Position numbers and translations under genes: made by a program. DNA of 52,031 nt from Acinetobacter phage AM106: the sequence record MH115576.1. The stretch is one strand, 5' to 3'. Positions within the stretch are counted from its first letter, which is position 1. The number at the start of each line of letters is the position of its first letter. Positions 23,017 through 41,606 of this stretch are shown here, in pieces. The notes under the pieces were generated by a model that was not told the DNA's origin, ran no database searches, and worked only from the letters and a program-made list of their open reading frames with translations.

Positions 23017-23043
23017 AACCCACTCACTGAGTGGGTTTTTTAT
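23017..23043 (+). terminator. Rho-independent terminator
   Basis: ACCCACTCA..TGAGTGGGT + T7. Confidence 0.6.
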
Positions 23044-23063
23044 TGCCTGGAGAAAAGTTAAAG

Positions 23064-27149: not shown

Positions 27150-27491
27150 ATGAGTGACTTAAAATTTACCTTTGAGTGTGATCTTGAAGGTAATAATCAA
27201 ACCCAACGTTTTAATACGTTATCAACAAAATTTGGTGACGGATATGAACAAAATACTTCAATTGGTATAAACAATCGATCTGGTGAATGGACCTATCAGC
27301 GCACAGCTAAGAAAGCTGAAATTTTGGAAATTAAAGCATTCTTTGATAAGCACAAGGGTGCTAATTCTTTTCTATGGGATTCGCCGTTAGATGGTGAAGT
27401 GCGCGTTAAAGCAGGGGATTATCAACCAGTTTGCTTGGGTGGAGATACGTGGCGCATTACAACCACATTTACTCAAGTTTTCTATCCATAA
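27150..27491 (+). CDS. Minor tail protein, lambda gpM-like
   Basis: 113 aa; 'FGDGYEQ' and 'SFLWDSP' match gpM landmarks (FGDGYSQ / SFLWTPP). Confidence 0.6.
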   Translation: MSDLKFTFECDLEGNNQTQRFNTLSTKFGDGYEQNTSIGINNRSGEWTYQRTAKKAEILEIKAFFDKHKGANSFLWDSPLDGEVRVKAGDYQPVCLGGDTWRITTTFTQVFYP

Positions 27492-27502
27492 TTTTTTCTC
27501 AA

Positions 27503-27525
27503 CGGCTCCTTAAGGAGCTTTTTTA
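27503..27525 (+). terminator. Rho-independent terminator
   Basis: GGCTCCTT-AAGGAGC + T6. Confidence 0.55.
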
Positions 27526-27545
27526 TTGCTTATTGGAGCAGAAAC

Positions 27546-27896
27546 ATGGCTATTAAAACTTTAGATCTTGCTGAAGCATATATTGTCGGTGAATTACGCA
27601 CTCAATTATTAGATGCACGTAGTTTCGGGAATAATTTGCCTGCTGGCAGAATTGAAACTTTAGCGATTAATTATGATCGACCTTCTGATTCAGTGAATAT
27701 TGCTGTTACACCAGGTGGTGGTTTAAACGGAAGTATGACTTTACTTGATGCTGACATCACAAAGTGGGCAATTCAAACGATCTTAAACACAGCTTATCTC
27801 TATCAGGTAGATGTAAACACTTTAAGCCTTAAATATGACTTGGCTGCTAAAAAAATTACTATTGAATATACTCCAGTTGTTTCAGGTCAAGCTTAA
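27546..27896 (+). CDS. Hypothetical tail protein
   Basis: 116 aa between M-like and L-like genes. Confidence 0.3.
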   Translation: MAIKTLDLAEAYIVGELRTQLLDARSFGNNLPAGRIETLAINYDRPSDSVNIAVTPGGGLNGSMTLLDADITKWAIQTILNTAYLYQVDVNTLSLKYDLAAKKITIEYTPVVSGQA

Positions 27897-27905
27897 GGAG
27901 GTCTC

Positions 27906-28604
27906 ATGACTTTACAAAGTGACTTCCAGAAACTTGAACCAGGTGGATTAATTCACCTGTATGAATTAGATGCCAGCTCGTATGGAGTTGGCATTCTTCG
28001 ATTTCATGGCCATCAGCAAATGGAAAGTATTTTTTGGCAGGGTCAGGAGTTTGAAGCTATTAGTCTGGATGTCTCTGGTTTAGAAATGAGATCAGATGGT
28101 AAGGCTTCGGCTCCCACATTAACAATCGCCAATAACCTGAACGGAATACAAGGTGCAATTTCAGCTTACTGTCTCCAATGTAAAGATTTCGTTGGAGCTA
28201 AACTCAAAGTTATAACCACACTCACCAAGTATCTTGATGCCAAGAACTTTCCTGAAGGCAATCCAACAGCATCAAATGAATCAAAAGAGCAGATTTGGTA
28301 TATCGAGCAGAAAACATCTGAAAATGCTCAACAAGTAACTTTTGAGCTTTCAAACCCGATTGATTTTGAGGGGTTGAGAATACCAGTTCGTCAAATTACT
28401 TCATTGTGCCATTGGTGCACGATGGGGAAATATCGTGGTGAAGAATGTGGTTATACCGGCGCTGCTATGTTTACAGAAAAGGATGAGCCAACTGATAACC
28501 CTGCATTAGATCGATGTGGAGGAAGGTTGCGCTCTTGCCGATTACGCTTTGGAGAAAACAAGCCCCTTCCTTTTGGAGGATTCCCAGCATCAAGCTTAGT
28601 TTGA
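27906..28604 (+). CDS. Minor tail protein, lambda gpL-like (C-terminal Cys cluster)
   Basis: 232 aa; 'CHWCTMGKYRGEECGYTG...DRCGGRLRSCRLRFG' resembles gpL Fe-S cysteines. Confidence 0.65.
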   Translation: MTLQSDFQKLEPGGLIHLYELDASSYGVGILRFHGHQQMESIFWQGQEFEAISLDVSGLEMRSDGKASAPTLTIANNLNGIQGAISAYCLQCKDFVGAKLKVITTLTKYLDAKNFPEGNPTASNESKEQIWYIEQKTSENAQQVTFELSNPIDFEGLRIPVRQITSLCHWCTMGKYRGEECGYTGAAMFTEKDEPTDNPALDRCGGRLRSCRLRFGENKPLPFGGFPASSLV

Positions 28605-28610
28605 GGTCCT

Positions 28611-29366
28611 ATGAAACTAACAGCAAAAATCAAAAAAGCGGTAATGGCCCATGCTGATGAATGCTATCCGCATGAATGCTGTGGGGTCATTGTAGACAAG
28701 GAATATATCCCTTGTCGAAATGTAGCAAACAAATCAGATCAGTTTGAAATACATCCTGAAGACTTAGCTTTTGCAGAAGACCAGGGCGAGATATTAGCGT
28801 ATGTGCATTCCCACCCTGACGGAACTACAAGAGCCTCAGAACTAGACTTAATTCAAATTGAGTTACATCAAAAGCCTTGGGTAATTTGTTCCTATCCGGA
28901 TCTAGATTTTCAAATATATGAACCATGTGGTTATCGCGCCCCTTTAGTGGGGCGTAATTATTTTCACGGTTGGCAGGATTGCTACGCTCTTATACGCGAT
29001 TTTTATAGTCGTGAATTAGGAGTCGAACTTATGGATTTCGAGCGTAAAGATGCTTGGTGGGAAGATAAAGATCATCCATCACTTTATCTTGAGAATTATG
29101 AGAAAGCAGGCTTCTATGAAGTAGATACGCCGCAATATGGCGATATGCTTGTTTGTCGTGTTGGGCGTACTGAACATCCCAATCATGCGGTTGTTTGGCT
29201 TGGGGATAATGGGCAGCTTAAATCGGAACAAACTGAGCAATGCATAGGTTCAAGTCTAATTCTTCATCATCCATATAATCGTAAATCTGTTCGTGAAATT
29301 TATGGCCAACAATGGCAAGAGCGAACAGTAAAGATATTGAGGCATCGAGATGTTAAAAACCATTAA
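28611..29366 (+). CDS. Tail assembly protein, lambda gpK-like (MPN/JAB + NlpC/P60)
   Basis: 'HECCGVIVDK...YVHSHPDG' JAB motif; C-terminal Cys/His hydrolase region. Confidence 0.65.
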   Translation: MKLTAKIKKAVMAHADECYPHECCGVIVDKEYIPCRNVANKSDQFEIHPEDLAFAEDQGEILAYVHSHPDGTTRASELDLIQIELHQKPWVICSYPDLDFQIYEPCGYRAPLVGRNYFHGWQDCYALIRDFYSRELGVELMDFERKDAWWEDKDHPSLYLENYEKAGFYEVDTPQYGDMLVCRVGRTEHPNHAVVWLGDNGQLKSEQTEQCIGSSLILHHPYNRKSVREIYGQQWQERTVKILRHRDVKNH

Positions 29367-30021
29367 ACTGTATGGAGTATTGGGACAAAAGTTTGGCCGT
29401 GAATTTAAACTTGATGTTTTAAATACACGTGAAGCTATGCGTGCATTAGCAGTACAAGTTGAAGGTTTCGAGCAGTTCATGTTGAAAGCACATGAGCAGG
29501 GACTCCAGTTTGCTGTATTTCTTAAGAGTAAAAATTCAAGCAAAAAGCGTGGAAAGAAAAGCCCATCAATTTATGACCATGAATCAAAACGACTGATTAC
29601 TGGAGACAATATCAGTGAAGACCAGCTTGATATGACTACACAAGCTGAAGTTATTCATGTTGTGCCTAGAGTAGTTGGAGCGGGCGGGGGTGGTGGCCTT
29701 CAAACAATTATCGGGGCTGTTATGGTAGTTGTAGGGGTGGTTGTAGGGGTGTTTGCTGGATGGACTGGTGTTGGTGCAGTTGTGGCACAAGGGTTAATCG
29801 GGGCGGGTATCGGCATGATGCTTGGTGGTGTGGCAATGATGCTTATGCCAAAGGTCGATAATACTCAGGACCAAAACCAAGATGGTAATAGGGCAAACCA
29901 AGGATTCGGTGGAGCTGTAACTACGGTTGCCCAAGGGAACCCTGTTCCAGTTTTATATGGCCAACGTGAAGTTGGTGGATTCATTGTGAGTGCTGGTCAG
30001 TATCCTGAAGACCAGATGTAG
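29350..30021 (+). CDS. Tail assembly protein, lambda gpI-like
   Basis: 'MLKTIKLYGVLGQKFGREFKLDV.T..EAMRAL' typical gpI N-terminus; Gly-rich hydrophobic C-terminal half. Confidence 0.6.
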   Translation: MLKTIKLYGVLGQKFGREFKLDVLNTREAMRALAVQVEGFEQFMLKAHEQGLQFAVFLKSKNSSKKRGKKSPSIYDHESKRLITGDNISEDQLDMTTQAEVIHVVPRVVGAGGGGGLQTIIGAVMVVVGVVVGVFAGWTGVGAVVAQGLIGAGIGMMLGGVAMMLMPKVDNTQDQNQDGNRANQGFGGAVTTVAQGNPVPVLYGQREVGGFIVSAGQYPEDQM

Positions 30022-30087: not shown

Positions 30088-33000
30088 ATGGCGATTGTAA
30101 AAGGCGCGAAAAAGGGCAAAGGTGAGGCAAGAAAACCTGTAGTTGCTCCAGATTCCGCACAATCTAAAACCTATATAAAAATCTTATATGGTTTAGGTGA
30201 AGGCGAAATTGAAGGATTAGCCAATGGCAATCAATCAATATTTCTTGAAGGAACTCCACTACAAGATGCCAATGGGAATCTGAATTATTCAAACGTAAAA
30301 CTAGATTTCCGTAAAGGAACTAATGATCAAGATTACATTGAAGGTTTTCCTTCAGTAGAAAGTGAAACTGCTGTCGATGTCGAATTGAAGTCAGGTGCTC
30401 CATGGGTACGAGCTTTTAATAATATTGATCTTGATGCCGTTCGTATTCGCTTAAAGTGGGGACCACTTCGCCAGCAGGACTCAAGCACTGGTGATGTTAG
30501 TGGTATAACAATTGAATATGCTATCGATATACAAACTGACGGTGGTGCCTGGACAGAAGTATTAAAAACAAAAATATCCGATAAGACTTCTGCAAATTAT
30601 GAACGAGCTCACCGTATTGATTTACCAAAGGCCGATAGTGGTTGGTTAATCCGGGTACGTCGCATTACACCTAATTCAACCTCTGAGTTTGTAAGCGACA
30701 AAATGTATGTTGAGGCATTTACTGAAGTTGTTGATGCAAAATTAAGATACCCAAATACGGCATTATTAGGTCTGCAATATGATGCCGAAACTTTTGGAAA
30801 TGTGGCGAAATTAGCTGTAGATCTGAAAGGTCGATTGCTTTTAGTACCAACCAATTACAACCCGCAAACGCGACAATATACTGGAATTTGGGATGGTACT
30901 TTTAAAAGAGCTTACACAAATAACCCGGCATGGATTTACTACGACCTTTGTACAAATGATCGTTATGGTTTAGGAAATCGCTTAACCCCATTCATGATTG
31001 ATAAATGGTCTTTGTACCGTTTAGCTCAATACTGCGATCAAAGCGTTTCCGACGGACTTGGCGGCCAAGAACCTAGATTTACATGTAATGTGTACATTCA
31101 AAATGCTGAAGATGCTTTCAGTATATTAATGAAATTGGCTGGTGTCTTTCGAGCGATTGCCTTCTGGGATGGTACAAGCATTATATGTGATGCCGATATA
31201 CCACAAGACACATATTTCACCTATACCCGTGCAAATGTGGTTGGTGGTGTTTTCGAATACTCAGGAACACGTGCACGTGATCGGCATAATGTAGTTAAGG
31301 TTGCGTGGGATAATCCTGCAAATCACTATAAAACAGAATACGAATTTGTTCGCGATGAAAATGCTATTGCTGAGTCTGGCCAAGTACGCATTCTTGAATT
31401 AGATGCGTGGGGATGTACTTCTCGTGGCCAGGCTCAACGTGCAGGCCACTGGGCTTTAAAATCCGAGCAAAAGGAGACTCGTACAGTTTCGTTTAAAGTC
31501 GGTTTAGATGGGCATATTCCACTGCCAGGAAGAGTAATTGAAATTGCGGATGAACTGTTTGCAGGACGTGCTAATGGCGGACGTGTATCTAAAATTTCTG
31601 CTGATCTCAAAAGCATAACCATTGATCGAGATGACGTTATTGCTAAAGCTGGTGATCGTCTGGTTATCAATGGCGAAAATGGCAAAGCACAAACGCGAAT
31701 TGTTCAGTCGATCTCTGGTCGGGTTATCACAGTAACACTTCCATTCGATGAGAATTCAATTGCTGTACAAAACGTATGGGTTCTTGATGCTCAAGATTTA
31801 GCGACAATGAAGTTCCGCGTAATTTCAATCTCGCAAGAAGAAAAACACCAATTTAGCATTACAGCGCTTCAGTACAACCCGCAAAAATTTGATGAAATTG
31901 ATAACGGGGCATTCTTTGAAGATGCACCTATTTCAATTATTAATCCTTCAATCCAGGAACCGGTTAAAGATGTTTTGATTACGACTGAAAGTCGTGTTGA
32001 TCAGGGTATTAATATCACCACAATGATTGTGTCTTGGATGCAAGCGAAAGGTGCCGTTAAGTATCTGGTTGAGTGGCGAAAAGATGATGGATCGTGGATC
32101 CGGTTACCGCAAACAGGAAATAATTCAGTCGAGGTACCTGGTGTTTATTCAGGTCAATATCAAGCTCGTGTTACCGCAATTTCTGCTTTTGAAATCGCAT
32201 CTTTACCGGTTACATCTTCCTTAACTGAAATTACTGGAAAGCAGGGATTACCGCCGAAAATAGCTTTTATACGTGCCACAGGTATTTTGTTTGGAATGAA
32301 GCTTGATTGGGGATTCCCTCCAACAGGTGCAAAAGATACAGCTTATACCGAAATTGAAGTTTCACCTGATGGCATCAACAATATTGCTCAATTAGGATTG
32401 TTTGCATATCCGACTACCACTACCACAATCCAAGGTTTACAACCTAATCTTAGACAGTTTTATCGCGGTCGATTAATTGACCGGATTGGCAATGTTGGTC
32501 CTTGGTCTGAATGGGTCAATGGTACGACCACAGCAGATCCGGAAGCGGTTCTTGATCTTATTTCTGGTCATATTAATGAGAGTGATCTTGCCCAAGAGCT
32601 TCAAGGTAAAATTGAAAATTCAGTCGATGTATCTGAAGCAGCCCAAGCTGCAGCAAATAATGCCCAAGCTGTTGCTAGTAGCGCCCAAACTGCAGCTAAC
32701 AATGCCCAGGCTGTGGCCTCTGAAGCTAAGACGGCGGCCTCGAGTGCTCAATCGGCAGCAACCACTGCTCAAACACAAGCTTCTTCAGCCCAAAAAATAG
32801 CAAATGATGCGAGTGTTATAGCGACCAATGCTAAAAATACTGCTGATCAGGCAGCTGAAGATGCGTCTTCAGCAATAACGGCAGCAGCAGAAGCAAAAAC
32901 TACTGCTACTAATGCGAATACGACCGCAACGAATGCACAAACAACCGCAAATAATGCTTCTTCGGCAGCATCAAAAGTTGCTTCAGATTTAACAACCTCA

Positions 33001-36000
33001 ACAAATCAGTTGAATAAGAAAATCGCTGATGAAACTGATGCACGCACAGCGGCAATTTCTAAACTGAATGATGGTCTCACCACAGAAACGTCTCAGCGCA
33101 AGTCAGAAGATGCTGCACTGTTAAACAATATTGAGACTTATAAGTCGAGCACCAATGGCACTTTGTCTAGTCTGCAAACGCAAATTAATACCAACGCGAC
33201 AAATACAAGTGCAAATACATCAAAAATTTCTTCGCTTGACTCTCGTTTAACCACAAACGAAGGCAAAACCGCAGATGCGATTAATGCAGCGGCAACAGCT
33301 CAACAAACTGCCAATACCGCCGTTACTAATGCGGCAGCAGCAGCTTCGGCAGTTACCTCACTAAAATCAGAGTTGAGTACAGGCAAAGGCATCAACAATA
33401 TCATTGCGCCTTTTTCTGATCCGCAAGAACTATCACCTTACATTATCGGTGCGTCGAGAACCGTTGCCTTAGTAAAATCACCAATGCGTATTAAGGGTAA
33501 TGCTTATGACGTTACATTTAATGCGGTGGCTGGCAGTATTTATTTTGGTTCCTCGTCACTAGCAACAGTCAATACTGCGGCGGCAGGTGTTGTCAGTGGC
33601 GGAAAGCGTTACATGCTAAGCGCTTATTTAAAGAACCTCGATGCCACTAAACAGGCAGATGTTTACTTTACATTGCATTGGTTTAAACGTGCAGCAAACG
33701 GCACTTTCACGGCTTCTCAAAGTGTTTTATTAAATCAGGCAACTAACAACACACGAGTAACACCTTCAAACGACGGCGGTACAATTAGCTGTAAAGCTGT
33801 AGCAGCACCACCAGATGCAGTTGCCTTTGCGGTTATCTGTTCTGGCAACGGCGTTTATAACGTCGCTGGTTCACGCATTCTCATTGACATGTTAATGCTT
33901 GAAGAGGTCGTTGGTGTCGATGTACCTGCTTCAACATGGACAGCAGGACCAACTGATTTAAGTGCTATTAAATCCGCTCTTGATGCCAATGCTTCTGCTA
34001 TTAGCAAAATCGATACCCGTGTAACAAATGCCGAAGGCACCATTACAAGCCAAGGCAATTCAATTACTCAATTGAATAACAGCGTTACGTCAATCAATGG
34101 CGAACTTACGAAGAAAGCTGATGCTACGGCTTTAAATGCCTTAACCAACCGAGTATCGACAGCAGAAGGCACAATTACAAGTCAAGGCAATTCAATTACG
34201 TCTTTACGTAATGATTTAAACGCAACCAATGACAAGGTTTCGTCAAAAGCGGACTCAAGTGCATTAAATTCCTTAGATTCTAAGGTTACAAGCATTGATG
34301 GAAGAGTAACTAGCAATACGAGTGCTGTGACCTCATTGCAAGGTCGTGTTTCAACCGTCGAGGGTGGACTTTCATCGAAAGCAGATGCCTCGGCATTAAA
34401 CAATTACTACACCAAAACAGAGGCGGATTCTGCCGCTTCTGGCGCAATCGACAAGTTCAACAGTCAATTGACGATTGGTGGTGTAAACGTTGTTGCGAAC
34501 TCCGAAGCTCCTCGCACTTCAACTGCCGCAACGAATCGCGAATATTTACTGTATGAACGTAGCGCCGAATTAAAAGCGTTCTATGACGAAAACCTTGAGA
34601 AGCCAATCACGATTTCGTTTGAAATGAGCGTTCCTGTGGCTGGACCGGTTCAAGTTTATTCGTCAAATGGTTCTGCTCACCAATTCGTTACTTCCGTTAA
34701 TGCAATTATCGTAAATCAATTTGCCAAATATTCAGTAACAGTTAGTCCAAAAGCGCATACGGCAAGTACAACTGTTTCGACAATTGAGTTCTATGGAACG
34801 TATGGAACTGGCCGTATCCCGACGATTCGTAAATTACAAATTGAAGCGGGCACAAAGGCTACCGCTTGGAGTCCAAGCCCTCGTGATACAAAGGCTGCAA
34901 TTGACGCCAATGCTTCTGCAATTCAAACGACCCAAACAAAAGTTGACAATATCGATGGTCGGCTAACCACTGCTACAGATTCGATTACGTCACTAAATTC
35001 GCGCATGTCTACAGCCGAAGGAAATATCAACAGCACAAATACTGCGGTTGGTGGACTTTCGACACGCATGGCAACCGCTGAGGGCAAGATCACCAATCAA
35101 AGTGATTCAATTGCATCGCTACAAAATAGCGTCACCTCAATCAATGGAACACTGGCAAACAAAGCCGATTCAAGCGCGGTCAATAACTTAACTAGCCGAG
35201 TGGAAACAGCCGAGGGCAAGATTTCAAGTCAAAGCGGGCAGATTACTTCGCTTAGCAATAGCCTTGATCTAACAAACAGTAACTTGAACGACGTAAACGT
35301 TCTGGCGCGACTGTTATCTCTTGGCAAGCCTCTACGCGACGATCCAACTTTTAAATCAACCACAGGCGGGTTGGCTGCTTACGCCTTGCAGTCTGGCTCT
35401 TCATTTACAAGACAAGCCAAATCAACAGACAACCCAATGGACAGCGCTTATGAAATGTTATTGCGCGCCACAACCACGCTTGGTTCGGGATGGTACCCAA
35501 ACAACCCAACTGTAAACGGCGGTCCTAATAAAGCATTCTTAGTGAAACAAGTAATTAAGATGCCAATTGGCCAAAAACTCGCCGCGTTTAACAATCCTTT
35601 GGGAGCTGGTGGTTATGTACGCATTTTAGGTAATGCAGAAGGTACGGGTAAATTTGAAACTTATTATTCCGTTATTCAGTGCGGTCCTGATGCCAATACG
35701 GCTATTCAAGGACACTTTAGAGTAATTAACAGCTCTAATCCACCAGTGCCTTCAGCAAGCAACCCAGTTGATGTAATTCTCGCTTCATACGAAGTGTTTG
35801 ATGTTACGGCTGTAAACGACACCATTCCAAAAGCTTATAGCAATGCTATTGCAGCCAATGCGAATGCGATTAACACCCTATCAAATACAGTCAGCCAGCA
35901 GGGTAATACCATTACTTCCCATAGTAATTCTATTACCCAACTCAACAACAGCATTTCAAGCATTAATGGCGCACTTTCGAGTAAAGCGGATACGAGCGCA

Positions 36001-39000
36001 TTACAGTCACTTGATTCAAAAGTAACCCTAATCGACGGCAAAGTTACATCTAACTCTTCTGCATTAACCGCATTACAAAGCAGCTTTGATGGGTTGCCGA
36101 ATCAGGGCGTGAACTTGCTTGGCCCTGAGATTTCAAATCCAGTAGAAAAGCCAACCAACTGGACGTCTGGATTGCCATTTGAAATCATCCAATCGCCAGA
36201 TACGGTAAATGTACGCGCGTTCCAATTCACGATGCCTGCTTCTTCAGGGAACGGCACATACTTCAATATTGGCGGAGGGCAGGTTCCACGCCAATGGCTG
36301 ACAGAAGGAAAGTACATCTTTAGTTTTGTTGCCAAAACTGTTGGCGGAACCCCACCGCATGCTATTGAGTGGCAACTCTACAATGTAGATAGTACACGCC
36401 TGCGCTTTAATATTACCGCAACATTAACCCGCTATAGCGGGGTGTTCACGGTGCCCGCTGGTGGTGCCGCTGCATGTATGCTGTTAATCGGAAACCCTAC
36501 AGGCAAACCTGCGGGACAAGTTATCAATATCGAAAGAATGATGCTTGAACGGCAAGTTGGCAACAACACAACCCCTTCGGCTTGGATTGCAGGTAGCGAC
36601 CCAACCGGAATGATTCTTTCAACGCAAGCCAAGGCGACTGATTTATTCAACACAGCCACTAGCCAAAACGCCGCGACTGCGGGACGCGTCACTAGCCTCG
36701 AAAGTCGCATGACGACCACAGAAGGCAATTTAAACAAAAAGGCTGATGCTTCTGCGCTTCAAAACCTCGACACGAAAGTTACGAATGTCGATGGCAAAGT
36801 AACGTCAAATACCAATGCCATTACAGCTTTAAGTTCAACTTTAAGCAACGCTACTTCAAGCATTTCAATGAATGCGGGTAATGCACAGGGCGATTGGACA
36901 TTCTTTAATACGTCAGGCGAATACTCAATTGTTGCACAAGCGGATGGCCAAGCGGGTCGTGTTATTCAACTTGGAAATAATGCTGGCAATGATATTGTTT
37001 GGATGCATCCGAATAACTTCATTCCTTTTGATGCAACTAAGACATATCGACTTCGTGCGCGGTATCGCCGTCGTGCCGGAACAGGCACAATTTACCTCGG
37101 TGTCTCTCAGAAAACCCCAGACAAGGCACTATACGTAACAACAGCCAACGCATTATCGGGCGACATGGGATCTTCTAACTATGTCGTTAATGCCCACGCG
37201 CCTGCGATCGATGAATGGCAAGAAATCGTTGCGTATATCAAAGGTCGATCAGCAGGAGCGGCATCAGGTTCAGGCTCAAAAACAAGCCCACGTACTGTTT
37301 CACAACAAGCAGGCTTCATCACGCCGATGTTTATTGCAAACTATTCGGCGCAAACGGGCATTGTTGAGCTTGATTACCTAATTCTGGAAGATGCAGAGGC
37401 AATTGTTGCCAATGATGCAAATGCATCAGCGATTAGCGCTCTTGATACCAAAGTATCAGAAGTTGATGGACGCTTAACGACAGCAACAAATTCAATCACT
37501 TCGCTTAACTCTCGTATGAGTGCGGCAGAAGGGAATATCTCAGCGGCAAACTCGGCTCTAAGCGGGCTTTCGACAAGAATGACGGCTGCTGAAAATGGTT
37601 TAACAAATCAAAGCAACGCGATTACTAATTTAAGTAACAGCTTGACGGTTACAACCAATACAGCCAACGCTGCATTGCCAAAGATTCAGGGCGGCACTGG
37701 CGCAGCTAAGTTATTTAGAGGCGTGCTGGTGTGGCAACAAAACGGCGCAAATCTAACTGGCAATATCGTAATCCAAACGCCAATTACGTTCACAAATAAA
37801 ATGTTCCGACTTTCACTTACTGGCTATAACTACTTGGCCGCTAAGAATGAAATTAATCTGAACATTGGGGGTTATGCATATTCGGGCACCTCTCTACTTC
37901 AACATGGTGTAGTGAATTCGGGCACCATGCCAATTCGAGTTCGCATGGGCGTCCGTAATGGCACAGTAGTCATTATTTTGACGTCCCAAGCGCCCGGTGC
38001 TTATTGGCAGTATCCAAAATTCAACATTGATGCCGAAATCGGCTATACAACTCCGCCAGACGAATGGATGAATGGTTGGTCTGCAAGCTTCATGGCAGAG
38101 GCAGACCTCGCATCTAATGGCATTTCGGCGATCATTGAGCCGTCTTTATTAGACATTTCAACAACGCTTAATGCCACTGCATCTGCAATTAGCAATCTGA
38201 CAAATACTGTGTCTCAACAGGGTAATACAATTACTTCACAAAGTAATTCTATTACCACCTTAACCAACAAGATTACTAACAACGATTTATCGAATCTTGT
38301 TCTTAATCCTGATTTCGTAGACCCGAAAAGCGATTGGACATCTGGCGTAATTGTTGATGCGACTGACGCAGCACCTAACCCTCCTTCTGCAAAAGCATTA
38401 AGACTGAATAACCGCGATAGTTATTACGGTCCTTTCGTCAAATGTAATGTTGGCGACATGTTCTATGTTTCGGCTTGGTTTGCGACGCCAAATACATCAG
38501 CAACCGCTTCTGCCGTGCTTGGTTTCAATACTCGGAACAGCGCAGGCACTTATACATGGTATAGCGTTGCCATTAAGTCTACGGACAAAAATGCTTGGGG
38601 TATGGTGGAAGGTTATTTCACTGTGCCAAATGGCATGGTTGATATTCGACCTTGGCTTCAAGTAAGTATAGCTGCGTCAGAAGCAGCGGGGCAGCAATGG
38701 CATGTTACGAACATTCAAGTACGTAACATTACAGGTAATAAGAAATTAGCAACCGACTTGCAAGCAACCTCGTCTGCATTAAGTACGCTTGATTCCAAAG
38801 TTACAAACATTGACGGCCGTGTAACTTCCGCATCTAACAATATTGTTTCGCTCAACAATAGCGTCACAAACATCAATGCCACCCTTGCTCAAAAGGCAGA
38901 TGCGACAGCGTTAAATTCGCTCTCTAACCGCGTAACAAATGCAGAAGGAAATATCACAAGCCAAGGTAACTCAATTACCTCATTGACTAACTCATTAGCA

Positions 39001-40557
39001 GTTAGCGGAAAAGGTGGAACTAACCTTCTCATTAAATCAAATGTAGTTGGCTTGTATGATGGCGTCTCATACCCACACCACACTTACAAACTAGGTGAAG
39101 ATTGGGAAATTGGCGCTAAATACACCTTGATCTGGTGCGCTGAACATAAACGAGGGACTGGTGATAACAACTCTTACCTAGCGGTTTACGCGGGTGGTGG
39201 TAGCCAGACTTTGCAATCTATTGTTAATACAGACGGTAAGGTTATCAGCAAGGTTACCTTTGTTAAAAACAGCGCAGTTGCCTCTGGTCCAATTATCCAC
39301 TTCTACATGATCAACCGTCCGACCGCAGATAAGGGCACTATCGGTACTGTTTATTGGGCAGTTTTAGTCAAAGGCGATGTACTCACGACTGACGCTTGGA
39401 TTCCAAGCCCATATGATTACATTCCTGATAGCAATGCAAATGCCTCTGCTATCGCAAATCTTGCTAATACAGTAAGTCAGCAAGGCAATACTATTACATC
39501 AAATAGCAGCAGCATTACCTCGCTAAACAATAGCATCACCAATATTAACGGCACGTTAGCAACAAAAGCAGATAGTTCGGCTCTAACAAACCTCGCCAAC
39601 CGCGTAACTACAACCGAAGGTGCAATTACCTCTCAAGGCTCAAGTATTACTTCGCTGAATGCATCTGTGAATGGCTTATTAAAGGATGTTGCAGTATCCG
39701 ATACTCGATCTACTAATCAGCCTCCATCGTGGTATTGGTCAAACTATCCATTGCGTATCGTTCGCGAGTTCAAGCAAGCCTCTGTGCTAGGTTTGACTGG
39801 CATGGGTACATATGTCTCCCTTGAAACATACGTTTATTGGACTGACGCATCTGGTGGTCCGATCATCCAGATTGCACGAGGTACAGATTCAAAACTTACG
39901 GCTGAACGTCGCAGCACCAGTACATCAACTTGGGGCTCATGGACTCAGGACATCAAAACCTTGACGGATGGTCTGGCTAATAAAGCTGAGGCCTCAGCGC
40001 TATCTTCACTTGATGCCAAGGTATCAACGATTGATGGAAAAGTCTCAACTCAGGCGACAAGTATTACCAATCTGCAAACAACTGTGGGTGGACATACGGC
40101 GTCAATTCAATCGCAGCAACAATCAATTGATGGATTGAAATCAAGAGCAACTTTGAAGTTGCAATCCGGCAATTTAATTGGCGGTGTTGGGATTGAGAAC
40201 GATAGCAAAACCGTTGATTTCATCATCCAAGCTAATAAGTTTGCAATTGGTGCGCCTTCAACTGTTTCCGGCTCTGTGACGCCTAAATATGCATTCGTCT
40301 ATCAATCAACAGCAACAACTCTGCCGAATGGGACAGTGATTCCTGCTGGCTTGTACTTAGACAGCGCGTCTATTAGCTATATCAACGCCAACAAAATTTA
40401 TGCAGATAGTTTAAGTGCTATTAGTGCAAATCTTGGTACCTTTACCTCATTGGCAGATCAATCAAAACCAAATGGTGCTAGGACTGTAATTAGTGGTGAG
40501 AGGATCGAAGTTTACGACGAAAACAATGTTATGCGTGTACGGATTGGGAGATGGTAA
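30088..40557 (+). CDS. Giant host-specificity/central tail fibre protein, lambda gpJ-like N-terminus (about 800 aa) followed by a long coiled-coil plus about 8 tandem [beta-module + 35-aa coiled-coil repeat] units
   Basis: 3489 aa single ORF; N-terminal region has J-like organisation; repeated 'KADxSALNxLxxRVxxxEGxITSQGNSITSL' blocks at about nt 33975-34410, 34890-35300, 35840-36100, 36610-36880, 37400-37690, 38150-38290, 38740-39010, 39420-39690, 39960-40150; modules end with a '...LE..G..AT.W.PSP.D'-like motif. Confidence 0.85.
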   Translation: MAIVKGAKKGKGEARKPVVAPDSAQSKTYIKILYGLGEGEIEGLANGNQSIFLEGTPLQDANGNLNYSNVKLDFRKGTNDQDYIEGFPSVESETAVDVELKSGAPWVRAFNNIDLDAVRIRLKWGPLRQQDSSTGDVSGITIEYAIDIQTDGGAWTEVLKTKISDKTSANYERAHRIDLPKADSGWLIRVRRITPNSTSEFVSDKMYVEAFTEVVDAKLRYPNTALLGLQYDAETFGNVAKLAVDLKGRLLLVPTNYNPQTRQYTGIWDGTFKRAYTNNPAWIYYDLCTNDRYGLGNRLTPFMIDKWSLYRLAQYCDQSVSDGLGGQEPRFTCNVYIQNAEDAFSILMKLAGVFRAIAFWDGTSIICDADIPQDTYFTYTRANVVGGVFEYSGTRARDRHNVVKVAWDNPANHYKTEYEFVRDENAIAESGQVRILELDAWGCTSRGQAQRAGHWALKSEQKETRTVSFKVGLDGHIPLPGRVIEIADELFAGRANGGRVSKISADLKSITIDRDDVIAKAGDRLVINGENGKAQTRIVQSISGRVITVTLPFDENSIAVQNVWVLDAQDLATMKFRVISISQEEKHQFSITALQYNPQKFDEIDNGAFFEDAPISIINPSIQEPVKDVLITTESRVDQGINITTMIVSWMQAKGAVKYLVEWRKDDGSWIRLPQTGNNSVEVPGVYSGQYQARVTAISAFEIASLPVTSSLTEITGKQGLPPKIAFIRATGILFGMKLDWGFPPTGAKDTAYTEIEVSPDGINNIAQLGLFAYPTTTTTIQGLQPNLRQFYRGRLIDRIGNVGPWSEWVNGTTTADPEAVLDLISGHINESDLAQELQGKIENSVDVSEAAQAAANNAQAVASSAQTAANNAQAVASEAKTAASSAQSAATTAQTQASSAQKIANDASVIATNAKNTADQAAEDASSAITAAAEAKTTATNANTTATNAQTTANNASSAASKVASDLTTSTNQLNKKIADETDARTAAISKLNDGLTTETSQRKSEDAALLNNIETYKSSTNGTLSSLQTQINTNATNTSANTSKISSLDSRLTTNEGKTADAINAAATAQQTANTAVTNAAAAASAVTSLKSELSTGKGINNIIAPFSDPQELSPYIIGASRTVALVKSPMRIKGNAYDVTFNAVAGSIYFGSSSLATVNTAAAGVVSGGKRYMLSAYLKNLDATKQADVYFTLHWFKRAANGTFTASQSVLLNQATNNTRVTPSNDGGTISCKAVAAPPDAVAFAVICSGNGVYNVAGSRILIDMLMLEEVVGVDVPASTWTAGPTDLSAIKSALDANASAISKIDTRVTNAEGTITSQGNSITQLNNSVTSINGELTKKADATALNALTNRVSTAEGTITSQGNSITSLRNDLNATNDKVSSKADSSALNSLDSKVTSIDGRVTSNTSAVTSLQGRVSTVEGGLSSKADASALNNYYTKTEADSAASGAIDKFNSQLTIGGVNVVANSEAPRTSTAATNREYLLYERSAELKAFYDENLEKPITISFEMSVPVAGPVQVYSSNGSAHQFVTSVNAIIVNQFAKYSVTVSPKAHTASTTVSTIEFYGTYGTGRIPTIRKLQIEAGTKATAWSPSPRDTKAAIDANASAIQTTQTKVDNIDGRLTTATDSITSLNSRMSTAEGNINSTNTAVGGLSTRMATAEGKITNQSDSIASLQNSVTSINGTLANKADSSAVNNLTSRVETAEGKISSQSGQITSLSNSLDLTNSNLNDVNVLARLLSLGKPLRDDPTFKSTTGGLAAYALQSGSSFTRQAKSTDNPMDSAYEMLLRATTTLGSGWYPNNPTVNGGPNKAFLVKQVIKMPIGQKLAAFNNPLGAGGYVRILGNAEGTGKFETYYSVIQCGPDANTAIQGHFRVINSSNPPVPSASNPVDVILASYEVFDVTAVNDTIPKAYSNAIAANANAINTLSNTVSQQGNTITSHSNSITQLNNSISSINGALSSKADTSALQSLDSKVTLIDGKVTSNSSALTALQSSFDGLPNQGVNLLGPEISNPVEKPTNWTSGLPFEIIQSPDTVNVRAFQFTMPASSGNGTYFNIGGGQVPRQWLTEGKYIFSFVAKTVGGTPPHAIEWQLYNVDSTRLRFNITATLTRYSGVFTVPAGGAAACMLLIGNPTGKPAGQVINIERMMLERQVGNNTTPSAWIAGSDPTGMILSTQAKATDLFNTATSQNAATAGRVTSLESRMTTTEGNLNKKADASALQNLDTKVTNVDGKVTSNTNAITALSSTLSNATSSISMNAGNAQGDWTFFNTSGEYSIVAQADGQAGRVIQLGNNAGNDIVWMHPNNFIPFDATKTYRLRARYRRRAGTGTIYLGVSQKTPDKALYVTTANALSGDMGSSNYVVNAHAPAIDEWQEIVAYIKGRSAGAASGSGSKTSPRTVSQQAGFITPMFIANYSAQTGIVELDYLILEDAEAIVANDANASAISALDTKVSEVDGRLTTATNSITSLNSRMSAAEGNISAANSALSGLSTRMTAAENGLTNQSNAITNLSNSLTVTTNTANAALPKIQGGTGAAKLFRGVLVWQQNGANLTGNIVIQTPITFTNKMFRLSLTGYNYLAAKNEINLNIGGYAYSGTSLLQHGVVNSGTMPIRVRMGVRNGTVVIILTSQAPGAYWQYPKFNIDAEIGYTTPPDEWMNGWSASFMAEADLASNGISAIIEPSLLDISTTLNATASAISNLTNTVSQQGNTITSQSNSITTLTNKITNNDLSNLVLNPDFVDPKSDWTSGVIVDATDAAPNPPSAKALRLNNRDSYYGPFVKCNVGDMFYVSAWFATPNTSATASAVLGFNTRNSAGTYTWYSVAIKSTDKNAWGMVEGYFTVPNGMVDIRPWLQVSIAASEAAGQQWHVTNIQVRNITGNKKLATDLQATSSALSTLDSKVTNIDGRVTSASNNIVSLNNSVTNINATLAQKADATALNSLSNRVTNAEGNITSQGNSITSLTNSLAVSGKGGTNLLIKSNVVGLYDGVSYPHHTYKLGEDWEIGAKYTLIWCAEHKRGTGDNNSYLAVYAGGGSQTLQSIVNTDGKVISKVTFVKNSAVASGPIIHFYMINRPTADKGTIGTVYWAVLVKGDVLTTDAWIPSPYDYIPDSNANASAIANLANTVSQQGNTITSNSSSITSLNNSITNINGTLATKADSSALTNLANRVTTTEGAITSQGSSITSLNASVNGLLKDVAVSDTRSTNQPPSWYWSNYPLRIVREFKQASVLGLTGMGTYVSLETYVYWTDASGGPIIQIARGTDSKLTAERRSTSTSTWGSWTQDIKTLTDGLANKAEASALSSLDAKVSTIDGKVSTQATSITNLQTTVGGHTASIQSQQQSIDGLKSRATLKLQSGNLIGGVGIENDSKTVDFIIQANKFAIGAPSTVSGSVTPKYAFVYQSTATTLPNGTVIPAGLYLDSASISYINANKIYADSLSAISANLGTFTSLADQSKPNGARTVISGERIEVYDENNVMRVRIGRW

Positions 40558-40881
40558 ATGCCCACAGGAATGATAATAAATTCTGAATCAGGGGAAGTTG
40601 TTTTTGATGGAACTGTGAAGATCCCTAAAATACTAGGGAAGGTTCTAATCGAGAATGGACAAACTTCAGCAGTATTAAACCTTAACAAGCCACTTGATGG
40701 CACGATGTTTTTTATTCCAAAAGGATTAGCAACTACAGTCGATCCAATCTATGCCCCTTTGGGAATTAACTATGAAGTAAGTCTTAGTTCTAACAAGCAG
40801 GTTGTAACGGTTAAATACATCGCGACCAGTGAGCAGCCAAAAGCAGGGACTGATTTTGAAGTTTATATTGGTGAATATTGA
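40558..40881 (+). CDS. Hypothetical protein downstream of J (possible fibre accessory/assembly protein)
   Basis: ATG abuts J stop (TAAATG). Confidence 0.3.
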   Translation: MPTGMIINSESGEVVFDGTVKIPKILGKVLIENGQTSAVLNLNKPLDGTMFFIPKGLATTVDPIYAPLGINYEVSLSSNKQVVTVKYIATSEQPKAGTDFEVYIGEY

Positions 40882-41606
40882 TGGATAACTATTTCTTAGT
40901 AAAGAATGACTTCATAAATGCTATTGATGATGACTATTTCAATCTTGCATTTATTAGAAAACAACGTTTTAACTTCACATCTGAACCTGGGATTACCTAT
41001 TACTATCGTACTTTTGAAGTAGATATAACAGGGATAGATTTTCCTGTTATTGCAATTAGTTGTGTTTGTCCTTCTGCTTATTTAAGTATGAAAGCCAATA
41101 CGCTTTCTATTGTTTGCTCAGCAAGTAATTATGATGGTGTGGCTAATTCAGTTAGCAATTTAAATAATTCATCTAAGTATTTAGATGTGTTTGTTTTTGG
41201 TCGATTGCCTAGAAGCAGTATTCCAGAACATGGTATTGGTGTAGTCTGTTTAGATGCATCAAGTAAAGTAGTTTATTACAGTGGTGCAGAGTATTTGAAA
41301 CCCATAAAAATGTTTATTGATCCCAATACTTATCGACCAATGTTTAATTCAAACTACAATACTCAGGTCGAGTATTTGCCGATTGGCAAGTCTTATGCAT
41401 GTATTCCCTTAAATAGAGTAAATACTGTTTATTCGGAGTGGACGCCTGAAGGTCAAGATGTCATAGCAATGTCATCAGTTTGTGCTATTGAGGGCAATAC
41501 TATTACTTATACCTCAAATCAGGTGCAAGTCGCACAAGATATTAGTGCTGTTTACAATGGATATTGTAGACATATGTACATGTTAATCGATGTATCGAAC
41601 TATTAA
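40878..41606 (+). CDS. Hypothetical protein (possible fibre accessory protein)
   Basis: 242 aa coupled ORF. Confidence 0.3.
   Translation: MMDNYFLVKNDFINAIDDDYFNLAFIRKQRFNFTSEPGITYYYRTFEVDITGIDFPVIAISCVCPSAYLSMKANTLSIVCSASNYDGVANSVSNLNNSSKYLDVFVFGRLPRSSIPEHGIGVVCLDASSKVVYYSGAEYLKPIKMFIDPNTYRPMFNSNYNTQVEYLPIGKSYACIPLNRVNTVYSEWTPEGQDVIAMSSVCAIEGNTITYTSNQVQVAQDISAVYNGYCRHMYMLIDVSNY

What the first reader, a model, noticed from the sequence alone, without database searches (positions are those of the whole stretch)
30088..40557. 3,489-aa J-like central fibre built from about eight tandem beta-modules separated by a conserved 35-aa coiled-coil repeat
After a lambda-J-like N-terminal third and a long Ala/Thr/Asn-rich coiled coil (nt about 32600-33400, with near-tandem DNA repeats around 32647-32720), the protein alternates a conserved repeat (KADxSALNxLxxRVxxxEGxITSQGNSITSLN) with divergent 150-300-aa beta-rich modules. 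Several modules end in a 'LE..G..AT.W.PSP.D'-type motif, for example AWSPSPRD, AWIAGSDP, AWIPSPYD and TWTAGPTD. This looks like a string of different receptor-binding/carbohydrate-binding domains on one fibre. It would provide multivalency, and the conserved linkers could allow cassette shuffling.
Basis: seen in the sequence. Interest (0 to 1): 0.7.

Follow-up and report, generated by a model that had tools for sequence, protein, structure and literature searches.

The report
Giant modular phage tail-tip fibre
This 3,489-residue gene encodes the tail-tip (J-type) central fibre of a temperate Acinetobacter baumannii phage: nine small beta-sandwich, sugar-binding-like domains are strung along a segmented coiled-coil rod, and related phages swap, delete and duplicate them as cassettes, which makes it a natural plug-and-play host-recognition device.

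Summary
ORF 30088-40557 (3,489 aa) is a J/TipJ tail-tip protein of a lambda-like Acinetobacter siphophage. It is 93.8% nt-identical to the Acba_3..18 phages.

The layout is: J hub (aa 1-834), an Ala/Thr/Asn coiled coil (835-1115), nine globular modules (A-I, 90-185 aa) alternating with nine conserved linkers, and a 130-aa tip homologous to solved central-fibre tips.

The linker period is 44 aa, not 35. [quoted passage not shown]

Cassette shuffling is directly visible:
- phi1_092021 lacks D-E-F and has an E-like module elsewhere, and one junction sits in the 'SQQGNTITSxSNSIT' linker repeat.
- 46 complete relatives range from 1,074 to 4,126 aa with about 30 module orders.

Glycan binding itself is untested. 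Verdict: a new variant of a known kind, with moderately high interest.

The parts
30088..32589 (+). J/TipJ tail-tip hub and FNIII domains (aa 1-834)
   Evidence: Pfam FNIII-A_GpJ and Phage-tail_3. phrog_31 'central tail fiber J'. PDB lambda J 8iyk_J aligns over aa 9-849, plus F2-pyocin fibre 25vf_A, 9l9p_S and 23gd_D.
32590..33432 (+). CC0: Ala/Thr/Asn-rich coiled coil, 281 aa, with a 21-nt (heptad) DNA repeat at 32641-32713
   Evidence: It sits where the F-pyocin fibre has its coiled coil, but on its own it gives no PDB sequence hit.
33433..33987 (+). Module A (aa 1116-1300), ends ...ASTWTAGPTD; class A/D/B/H
   Evidence: hhalign A-D probability 99.8%. Motif found.
33988..34479 (+). Linker CC1 (aa 1301-1464), with three KAD nonads at aa 1343, 1387 and 1431
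34480..34917 (+). Module B (aa 1465-1610), ends ...KATAWSPSPRD; CBM-like beta-sandwich
34918..35319 (+). Linker CC2 (aa 1611-1744), KAD at aa 1692
   Evidence: P22 tail-needle gp26 trimeric coiled coil (4lin_A, 3c9i_A) aligns to aa 1606-1682. Register shown.
35320..35802 (+). Module C (aa 1745-1905); own family, fold not determined
   Evidence: 29 non-redundant homologues. Divergent allele (60-70% identity) in phi1_092021. No Pfam or PDB sequence hit.
35803..36099 (+). Linker CC3 (aa 1906-2004), KAD at aa 1966; holds repeat D2 copy 1 (35854-35962), the left junction of the D-E-F cassette
36100..36642 (+). Module D (aa 2005-2185), ends ...PSAWIAGSDP; class A/D/B/H
   Evidence: hhalign A-D 99.8%, B-D 84.4%. 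Absent from phi1_092021.
36643..36870 (+). Linker CC4 (aa 2186-2261), KAD at aa 2218
36871..37401 (+). Module E (aa 2262-2438); CBM-like jelly-roll beta-sandwich; the most widespread module
37402..37689 (+). Linker CC5 (aa 2439-2534)
37690..38142 (+). Module F (aa 2535-2685); own family, fold not determined
   Evidence: 32 non-redundant homologues. Absent from phi1_092021.
38143..38304 (+). Linker CC6 (aa 2686-2739); holds repeat D2 copy 2 (38173-38281), the right junction of the D-E-F cassette
38305..38742 (+). Module G (aa 2740-2885); own family, rare; triplicated in P0011
38743..39024 (+). Linker CC7 (aa 2886-2979), KAD at aa 2936
39025..39447 (+). Module H (aa 2980-3120), ends ...TDAWIPSPYD; class A/D/B/H
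   Evidence: hhalign B-H 89.9%. Motif found.
39448..39684 (+). Linker CC8 (aa 3121-3199), KAD at aa 3160. D2 copy 3 (39436-39544) spans the H/CC8 border. phi1_092021 carries its extra E-like module after H, and the alignments rejoin at 39514-39598
39685..39957 (+). Module I (aa 3200-3290); small, directly followed by CC9 and Z in many relatives
   Evidence: I-[~69 aa]-Z adjacency is recurrent among relatives. Fold not determined.
39958..40164 (+). Linker CC9 (aa 3291-3359), KAE at aa 3299; the coiled coil that abuts the tip
   Evidence: Aligns with the coiled coil preceding the tip in 9ze4_N and 7z4b_EA. Conserved in the minimal 1,074-aa relative L037. Pyocin fold-switch regex enriched, 4 hits, reached by 1 of 500 shuffles.
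40165..40557 (+). [not shown]
   Evidence: PDB 7z4b_EA 'tail tip fiber' aligns to its last residue (E 4.7e-6). 9ze4_N 'J central straight fiber domain' E 4e-6. Weak Pfam Phage_Tail_Tip, E 0.003, below cut-off.

Best explanation
This is the J-type tail-tip protein of a temperate lambda-like Acinetobacter baumannii siphophage.

Shown:
- The N-terminal 834 residues build the trimeric hub that closes the tail tube.
- The C-terminal 130 residues are the conserved central-fibre tip.
- In between, the short coiled coil of ordinary J proteins (for example the 1,074-aa relative L037) is expanded to about 2,500 residues. Ten coiled-coil segments (1,146 residues in all) alternate with nine autonomous globular modules.
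- The linkers have a 44-residue unit of five heptads plus a KAD nonad.
- Related phages differ by replacement, deletion, duplication and re-ordering of modules, and one junction was traced to a linker repeat.

Inferred:
- The linkers are trimeric alpha/beta coiled coils with beta-layers, so each module is displayed three times per node around a rod. If fully extended at ~1.5 A per residue, the rod would be about 170 nm long.
- At least five modules (E, and the B/A/D/H class) are CBM-like beta-sandwiches. They make weak, multivalent, reversible contacts with surface polysaccharide (capsule, LOS, matrix).
- The conserved I-CC9-Z end engages the final receptor and relays the trigger to the hub.
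- Host range evolves by recombination between the conserved linker-coding repeats.
For: - Identity as J: Pfam and PHROG hits. PDB sequence hits to lambda J and the F2-pyocin fibre over about 850-1,070 residues. Gene order is tube, tape measure, M/L/K/I-like genes, J, then lysis genes, with no separate side-fibre or tailspike gene.
- Tip: homology to the ends of the solved tip fibres 7z4b_EA and 9ze4_N.
- Linker register: ILMVFWY occupies 92% of a positions, 63% of d positions and 0-3% elsewhere when the nine KAD sites are read as abc-KAD-efg nonads. KAD is the crystallographically defined beta-layer triad (PMC4786415). The P22 gp26 trimeric needle aligns to aa 1606-1682.
- Module classes by hhalign.
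- Spread: 808 cluster representatives carry these modules. 41 Acinetobacter phages of several morphotypes carry them in tail-fibre genes.
- Shuffling: phi1_092021, Acba_14 mosaic, 153 A. baumannii proteins, and 46 complete IMG/VR ORFs of 1,074-4,126 aa with about 30 architectures, some on hubs 99-100% identical to this one.
Against: - No ligand binding can be tested here, and a CBM-like fold is also used for protein binding and as a scaffold.
- No module matches a CAZy or Pfam CBM family.
- C, F, G and I have no structural model.
- The trimeric state, the beta-layers and the extended length are inferred, not modelled.
- Repeats inside the gene share at most 17 nt of exact identity, so ordinary RecA-type recombination within one genome would be inefficient.
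- Many database variants come from draft assemblies in which this gene often breaks contigs, so a few architectures, such as G-G-G in P0011, could be assembly errors.
Confidence: 0.72

Rival explanations
1. The modules are mainly structural. They act as spacers, stabilisers or protein-protein contacts that set fibre length and stiffness. Only the conserved distal end (I-CC9-Z, or the extra ~200-aa knob in relatives) recognises the host.
For: - The I-Z end is the most constant part of the variable region.
- Relatives with no modules at all exist (L037, 1,074 aa), so modules are dispensable for a functional J.
- No CBM sequence-family membership.
- Some relatives carry a variable C-terminal knob that looks like a classical receptor-binding domain.
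Against: - E and B resemble ligand-binding CBMs and the phage accessory carbohydrate-binding protein BppA rather than Ig/FN3-type spacers.
- The same modules occur in tail fibres of unrelated Acinetobacter myoviruses and in Presley, as expected for host-specific binding units.
- Module alleles diverge much faster than the hub.
Confidence: 0.17
2. The coiled-coil linkers are metastable. Like the 163-residue coiled coil of the F7 pyocin central fibre, they switch to a beta-prism after receptor binding. The fibre would then shorten like a winch and power tip opening, with the modules serving as anchors.
For: - The hub is closely related to F-pyocin fibres.
- The published switch lies directly before a beta-prism tip and is predicted in 21 of 24 siphophage central fibres (PMC12874032).
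- CC9 abuts the homologous tip and is enriched for the SxSxxMxxLxS pattern, reached by 1 of 500 shuffles. CC4 is also enriched, reached by 7 of 500.
Against: - Eight of ten coiled-coil segments, including CC0, show no enrichment.
- KAD beta-layers and a clean heptad register point to a stable rod.
- CC0 alone has no detectable sequence similarity to the pyocin coiled coil.
- The regex test is crude, and no multimer prediction could be run.
Confidence: 0.08
3. Some modules are enzymes (depolymerase, esterase or deacetylase) that degrade capsule rather than lectin-like binders.
For: - A. baumannii phages commonly carry capsule depolymerases (PMC11126041).
- C, F, G and I have no fold assignment.
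Against: - No catalytic family was detected in any module, even at E<=10.
- Modules are only 90-185 aa.
- The top structural matches of E and B are non-catalytic CBMs.
- The Acba relatives form small clear plaques; the one haloed phage (Acba_6) is a podovirus that was not among the matches.
Confidence: 0.02
4. The giant ORF or its variants are artefacts: a misassembly across repeats, or fused genes.
For: Most database homologues are labelled 'partial' and end at contig edges.
Against: - Eight independently isolated Acba phages carry a collinear 10,470-nt gene, read in Acba_14 as an intact 3,489-codon ORF.
- phi1_092021 has an intact 2,990-aa version.
- Internal DNA repeats are too diverged (17 nt or less exact) to collapse an assembly.
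Confidence: 0.01

Closest known systems
Lambda gpJ / TipJ central tail fibre and F-type pyocin central fibre protein (PDB 8iyk, 25vf; PMC12874032, PMC13455828)
   Same: - Homologous hub over about 850 residues.
- Same gene position after the tape measure and M/L/K/I genes.
- Coiled coil followed by a beta-rich tip at the C-terminus.
   Different: - Those proteins are 1,130-1,220 aa with one coiled coil and a terminal receptor-binding region.
- This one has about 2,250 extra residues: nine inserted globular modules and nine repeat linkers.
- It lacks a lambda-type C-terminal receptor-binding domain after the tip.
CBM-decorated adhesion devices of Gram-positive siphophages: Tuc2009/TP901-1 BppA, 'evolved' Dit and Tal extensions (PDB 5e7t; PMC7291167, PMC9692632)
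   Same: - Accessory carbohydrate-binding beta-sandwich domains added to tail-tip proteins.
- Module B's best structural match is BppA.
- B-type modules with the same 'ATxWxPxPxD' end occur in Enterococcus and Streptococcus phage fibres.
   Different: - There, one or a few CBMs sit on baseplate proteins (Dit, Tal, BppA).
- Here, up to nine or more are threaded in series on a single J fibre of a Gram-negative phage and are separated by coiled coil.
Alpha/beta coiled coils with beta-layers: Actinobacillus OMP100 and other trimeric autotransporter stalks, P22 gp26, S. pyogenes prophage fibre 2C3F (PMC4786415)
   Same: - KAD triad in a nonad embedded in a heptad register.
- Sequence similarity to the gp26 coiled coil.
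- Like trimeric autotransporter adhesins, a rod interrupted by globular, possibly adhesive, domains.
   Different: - Beta-layers here recur every 44 residues inside linkers that flank phage modules.
- No structure is available for this protein, so the beta-layer conformation is inferred.
Streptococcus thermophilus phage antireceptor with variable region VR2 flanked by collagen-like repeats, and fragment shuffling in phage receptor-binding proteins generally (PMC10684548; the S. thermophilus case is cited from my own knowledge)
   Same: Conserved repetitive linkers flank variable host-recognition cassettes and serve as recombination sites.
   Different: - The linkers here are coiled-coil repeats, not collagen-like.
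- Many cassettes are arranged in series, and copy number and order vary, not just the allele at one site.

Membership tests
J / TipJ tail-tip (central tail fibre) protein | N-terminal hub domains detectable by family models | tested here: met
   Pfam FNIII-A_GpJ 151 bits (cut-off 27) and Phage-tail_3 65 bits (cut-off 23). phrog_31 E=0.
J / TipJ tail-tip (central tail fibre) protein | Full-hub homology to structurally solved J proteins | tested here: met
   8iyk_J E 2.5e-140 over aa 9-849. 25vf_A E 3.4e-258.
J / TipJ tail-tip (central tail fibre) protein | Gene follows tape measure and M, L, K, I homologues | tested here: met
   TMP at 23031-27032. phrog_14, 18, 30 and 32 hits for the ORFs in 27150-30021.
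J / TipJ tail-tip (central tail fibre) protein | C-terminal central-fibre tip domain (Phage_Tail_Tip/DUF1983-like) | tested here: met
   Pfam PF09327 is only 17.7 bits, below the cut-off of 22. PDB 7z4b_EA and 9ze4_N align at E about 4e-6, in 7z4b_EA to the last residue.
J / TipJ tail-tip (central tail fibre) protein | Trimer at the tail tip of the virion | not testable with these tools
   Needs virion proteomics or cryo-EM.
Carbohydrate-binding modules (CBM4/9/16/22/29-like beta-sandwich) | Beta-sandwich jelly-roll fold | tested here: met
   [not shown]
Carbohydrate-binding modules (CBM4/9/16/22/29-like beta-sandwich) | Sequence membership of a curated CBM family | tested here: not met
   No CBM or other credible Pfam family for any of the nine modules at E<=10. 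Profiles of E and of C/F/H/I find no PDB sequence relative.
Carbohydrate-binding modules (CBM4/9/16/22/29-like beta-sandwich) | Demonstrated glycan binding or a conserved ligand site | not testable with these tools
   Needs glycan arrays or cell-binding assays.
Alpha/beta coiled coil with beta-layers | Two-residue insertion (nonad) in an otherwise heptad register | tested here: met
   The 44-aa unit is 5 x 7 + 9. Hydrophobic occupancy is 92% at a, 63% at d and 3% or less elsewhere.
Alpha/beta coiled coil with beta-layers | Beta-layer triad such as KAD/KDD at the centre of the nonad | tested here: met
   Eight KAD and one KAE in the predicted position. Motif defined in PMC4786415.
Alpha/beta coiled coil with beta-layers | Beta backbone conformation and 120-degree chain crossing in the trimer | not testable with these tools
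   No multimer prediction was available.
Fold-switching central-fibre coiled coil (F7 pyocin type) | Coiled coil immediately N-terminal to a beta-prism tip that can seed the switch | tested here: inconclusive
   [not shown]
Fold-switching central-fibre coiled coil (F7 pyocin type) | SxSxxMxxLxS strand pattern | tested here: inconclusive
   A regex test is enriched in CC9 (reached by 1 of 500 shuffles) and CC4 (7 of 500), but not in the other eight segments.
Fold-switching central-fibre coiled coil (F7 pyocin type) | Two alternative predicted or observed conformations | not testable with these tools
   Needs AF3 or CF-random trimer runs, or cryo-EM.

The most novel reading that the evidence does not exclude
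The linkers may not be a passive rod. They could be a chain of metastable coiled coils of the F7-pyocin type. In that case, binding of the CBM-like nodes and the tip would trigger stepwise coiled-coil-to-beta-prism conversion. This would reel a roughly 170-nm fibre in through the capsule and store the energy for tail-tip opening, acting as a modular, evolvable molecular winch. The evidence leaves this open for CC9 (and CC4), but gives no support for most linkers.
Probability: 0.08. Interest if true: 0.85.

Novelty: new variant of a known kind. Interest (0 to 1): 0.6.

Why it matters
A. baumannii is a priority pathogen for phage therapy, and its temperate siphophages are common prophages.

- **Engineering.** This fibre shows a natural, regular scaffold: a conserved hub and tip, standard 44-residue linkers, and interchangeable about 150-residue binding modules. 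Nature already edits it by cassette exchange, so it gives concrete junction sites for host-range engineering. It also provides a library of hundreds of uncharacterised CBM-like modules that are shared across Acinetobacter phage morphotypes.
- **Mechanism.** It raises the question of how a receptor signal travels along a fibre about as long as the tail itself.
- **Annotation.** It explains why this gene is fragmented and mislabelled ('beta strand repeat-containing protein', 'main tail protein') in thousands of draft genomes.

Tried and rejected
1. Self-BLAST of the whole protein returned only the identity hit. It was replaced by a windowed BLAST.
2. Pfam on each module at E<=10 gave nothing credible; only a few weak, sub-threshold chance matches appeared. 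Pfam hits on homologues are all generic coiled-coil families.
3. PDB profile searches found no true hit for family E or for C/F/H/I.
4. CC0 alone against the PDB gave no hit. The long pyocin alignment through CC0 is therefore not independent evidence of homology.
5. For a five-module AlphaFold job, MAFFT first misplaced the fragment rows (A2). The two structure jobs therefore went to the single modules E and B, and C, F, G and I remain unmodelled.
6. Literature searches on Vieuvirus and Acinetobacter tail fibres and on modular central fibres found no description of this architecture.
7. Long recombinogenic DNA repeats inside the gene were looked for and not found: 17 nt or less exact, 60-84% over 31-109 nt.
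8. The largest module-bearing proteins (4.5-7.9 kaa) turned out not to be J proteins. They have a different N-terminus, so they were not counted as relatives of the whole protein.
Full report
**1. What is there**

The + strand ORF 30088..40557 is uninterrupted and encodes 3,489 aa. The window is a lambda-like temperate siphophage. The gene order is terminase, portal and capsid genes, tail tube (19864), tape measure (23031-27032), M/L/K/I-like genes (27150-30021), this gene, two small ORFs, holin, endolysin and integrase. No separate side-fibre or tailspike gene lies between J and the lysis genes.

At DNA level the gene is 93.8% identical over its full length to eight Acinetobacter baumannii phages, Acba_3, 4, 11, 13, 14, 15, 16 and 18, where it is called 'putative main tail protein'. 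It covers 79% of the 'central tail fiber J' of phage phi1_092021. Most of the phages isolated in that study, including the matching Acba phages, are temperate siphoviruses (PMC9866556).

**2. The two ends**

- **Hub.** Residues 1-834 are a J/TipJ hub. Pfam FNIII-A_GpJ and Phage-tail_3 score well above cut-off and phrog_31 matches. PDB sequence hits are the F2-pyocin tail fibre (25vf_A, E 3e-258), 9l9p_S, 23gd_D and lambda J (8iyk_J, aa 9-849).
- **Tip.** The last ~180 residues align with the ends of two solved tip fibres. These are 7z4b_EA, aligned up to its final residues (...RIRIGSW versus ...RVRIGRW here), and 9ze4_N, 'J central straight fiber domain'. Pfam Phage_Tail_Tip is only sub-threshold.
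- **Minimal relative.** An IMG/VR relative of 1,074 aa (L037) consists of just hub, a short coiled coil and this tip. Everything between aa ~835 and ~3290 in the window protein is therefore an expansion of the normal J coiled coil.

**3. The rod**

Windowed self-BLAST shows ten repeat-rich segments separated by nine unique segments.

The first segment (CC0, aa 835-1115) is an Ala/Thr/Asn-rich heptad coiled coil.

KAD sites at 1343, 1387 and 1431 are exactly 44 apart. I read each unit as five heptads plus a nonad, abc-KAD-efg. On that reading, strongly hydrophobic residues fill 92% of a positions, 63% of d positions and 0-3% of all other positions.

KAD in a nonad is the crystallographically defined beta-layer of Actinobacillus OMP100. 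Beta-layers are documented in phage fibres and needles, including P22 gp26 (PMC4786415). gp26's trimeric coiled coil also aligns to aa 1606-1682. The linkers are therefore best read as a parallel trimeric alpha/beta coiled coil. This is an inference, because no trimer model could be made.

The coiled-coil segments add up to 1,146 residues. At ~1.5 A per residue that is about 170 nm, comparable to the ~200 nm expected for the 1,333-aa tape measure. This is arithmetic on an assumed extended rod, not a measurement.

**4. The beads**

There are nine inter-linker modules, A to I, of 90-185 aa. None matches any credible Pfam family, even at E<=10.

A search of 1.84 billion cluster representatives with the concatenated modules found 808 proteins at E<=1e-3 and 98 at E<=1e-30. 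Many are 2,000-7,850 aa long. These provided family alignments of 21-98 non-redundant sequences for six of the nine module families; H and I each have about 40, while A and G have only 6 and 3.

Profile-profile comparison groups A with D (99.8%), B with H (89.9%) and B with D (84.4%). This is exactly the set ending in the 'LE.G..AT.W.PSP.D' motif. C, E, F, G and I are unrelated to each other.

AlphaFold2 with these alignments gives confident single-chain models:
- **Module E:** pLDDT 94.4, pTM 0.88, all-beta.
- **Module B:** pLDDT 93.9, pTM 0.86, a beta-sandwich. The chain turns helical immediately after PSPRD, so the motif is the last strand plus the cap of the next linker helix.

- **E against BFVD:** Acinetobacter phage tail proteins at TM 0.91-0.93.

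They also have no PDB sequence relatives. Their recurrence as discrete units in other contexts argues that they too are domains.

**5. Cassette shuffling**

- **phi1_092021.** Its J (2,990 aa) is ~100% identical to the window protein over aa 1-1720. It has a 60-70% allele of C and lacks D-E-F (771 aa). It is again ~100% identical through G-CC7-H. It then carries a 45%-identical E-like module after H, and ends with I-CC9-Z at 82-100% identity.
- **Junctions.** The D-E-F junction coincides with direct-repeat family D2 (35854-35962 and 38173-38281). The second rearrangement joins at 39514-39598, beside the third D2 copy (39436-39544). At base level the D-E-F crossover lies inside a ~45-nt stretch encoding SQQGNTITSxSNSIT.
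- **Acba_14.** It has the same length and order but is a patchwork. Nucleotide identity is 100% over the hub through A and ~99% through CC2, and again 100% over F-CC6 (99.7% in CC5). It is 71-95% in B, D, E, G, H, I and CC9, and C is a divergent allele.
- **A. baumannii proteins.** The 153 proteins recovered show many orders: B-C-G-H-E-I-Z, C-H-I-Z, B-C-D-E-I-Z, B-B duplications, G-G-G, an extra 290-aa module, and an alternative C-terminus.
- **IMG/VR.** A scan with the hub alone returned 63 loci. The 46 complete ORFs run from 1,074 to 4,126 aa with about 30 module strings, including hubs 99-100% identical to this one with different strings (L003, L052). Many carry 1,558-2,006 aa of modules unrelated to the window's.
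- **Other phages.** In the curated phage collection the modules occur in 44 records. Of these, 41 are Acinetobacter phages, including myoviruses (phiAbaA1, TAC1, ME3, B09_Aci05) and Presley. B-type modules also occur in Enterococcus and Streptococcus phage fibres.

Inside one gene the linker repeats have drifted apart at synonymous sites. Exact repeats are 17 nt or shorter, and identity is 60-84% over 31-109 nt. Exchange is therefore more likely between alleles in different phages or prophages, or by short-homology recombination, than by frequent intragenic slippage.

**6. How it probably works**

Shown:
- It is a J hub plus a conserved tip.
- The rod has the signature of a segmented alpha/beta coiled coil.
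- At least five CBM-like beta-sandwich modules are present.
- Modular variation occurs in nature.

Inferred:
- The protein trimerises like other J proteins, so each node displays three copies of a module.
- The nodes make weak multivalent contacts with capsule, LOS or matrix glycans, letting the phage hold on to and move through the thick A. baumannii surface layer.
- The conserved I-CC9-Z end makes the committed contact and relays the signal to the hub.

I put 0.72 on this overall picture. Identity and architecture stand at about 0.9, and glycan binding by the modules at about 0.55.

**7. Rivals**

- **Structural modules.** The modules could be mainly structural, with recognition confined to the tip (0.17). 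The dispensability of modules (L037) and the variable ~200-aa terminal knob in relatives speak for this. The CBM/BppA-like folds and the cross-morphotype sharing speak against it.
- **Fold switch.** A recent preprint shows that the coiled coil of the F7 pyocin central fibre switches to a beta-prism to drive tip opening (PMC12874032). This raises the possibility that these linkers are metastable. A crude pattern test is positive only for CC9, the segment abutting the tip, and for CC4. CC0 alone has no detectable similarity to the pyocin coiled coil. I give this 0.08. It is the most novel reading still open.
- **Enzymes or artefact.** Enzymatic modules (0.02) and an artefactual ORF (0.01) are unlikely.

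**8. Comparison with what is known, and novelty**

The protein is a member of the J/TipJ family. The defining features that could be tested are met.

The modules work like CBMs at the fold level, but they are not members of any curated CBM family, and I do not file them as such.

The general ideas are established: CBM decoration of siphophage adhesion devices (PMC7291167) and fragment shuffling in receptor-binding proteins (PMC10684548). PHROG families for such giant tail proteins already exist (phrog_2589, phrog_11678).

I could not find the following described in the searchable literature, including two surveys of Acinetobacter phage fibres:
- the serial beads-on-a-rod architecture inside a J protein;
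- the 44-residue KAD-nonad linker;
- the documented cassette indels, duplications and re-ordering on a constant hub.

I rate it a new variant of a known kind, with interest 0.6.

Noticed in passing
L003 and L004 (IMG/VR), last ~200 aa of the J ORFs; compare window 40165-40554: Close relatives carry a variable ~200-aa C-terminal domain (ending ...ELKK) after the conserved 'LPNGTVIPxGLY...ISAxLG' tip segment. The window protein ends after only ~35 more residues (...RVRIGRW). Two alternative kinds of distal end therefore exist on the same hub.
   Followed up: partly
L037 (IMG/VR), J ORF of 1,074 aa: A relative with 67% hub identity has no modules at all, only hub, a short coiled coil and the Z tip. 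This shows that the modular region is an insertion into the ordinary J coiled coil.
   Followed up: partly
P0163 (7,239 aa), P0301 (7,850 aa), P0180, P0190, P0197, P0208, P0209, P0215 (metagenomic): Proteins of 4.5-7.9 thousand residues carry many copies of modules D, H, E and C. They have a different, non-J N-terminus ('MSIE..GT.I...VT.DQVRDYILTYFGK'), and some end with a Z-like tip. They are probably giant fibres of another phage type, and their context was not examined.
   Followed up: partly
window 40558-40881 and 40878-41606 (+): Two ORFs (107 and 242 aa) directly follow J, and counterparts sit in the same position in phi1_092021 and Acba_14. They are annotated there as 'hypothetical', 'membrane-associated protein' or 'putative side tail fiber protein'. 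They have no Pfam hit and only PHROGs of unknown function. Their possible roles (fibre assembly, exclusion) are open.
   Followed up: partly
window 23031-27032 (+): The 1,333-aa tape measure protein contains an SLT lytic transglycosylase domain (aa 730-826).
   Followed up: no
Homologous-protein hit lists (P0001-P0153): Nearly all A. baumannii database homologues are labelled 'partial' and end at contig edges, under names such as 'beta strand repeat-containing protein' or 'DUF1983 domain-containing protein'. The gene evidently breaks short-read assemblies and is inconsistently annotated.
   Followed up: partly
window 30088-40557, linker-coding repeats (e.g. 34017-34067, 34149-34199, 38928-38978): Linker repeats are 40-76% identical as protein but share at most 17 nt of exact DNA identity within the gene. 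This is consistent with selection against intragenic recombination, but that was not tested.
   Followed up: partly
Enterococcus phage 9181 (MT939240) 67792-68220; Streptococcus phage Javan629 (MK448822) 33646-34002: Module B-type domains (30-37% identity) occur in tail-fibre genes of Gram-positive phages. This domain family therefore crosses the Gram divide.
   Followed up: no
window 32477-32800 (+, 107 aa, TTG) and 36432-36737 (-, 101 aa): ORFs in other frames lie wholly inside the J gene, one of them over the Ala/Thr/Asn repeat. They are probably by-products of biased composition rather than genes, but this was not examined.
   Followed up: no
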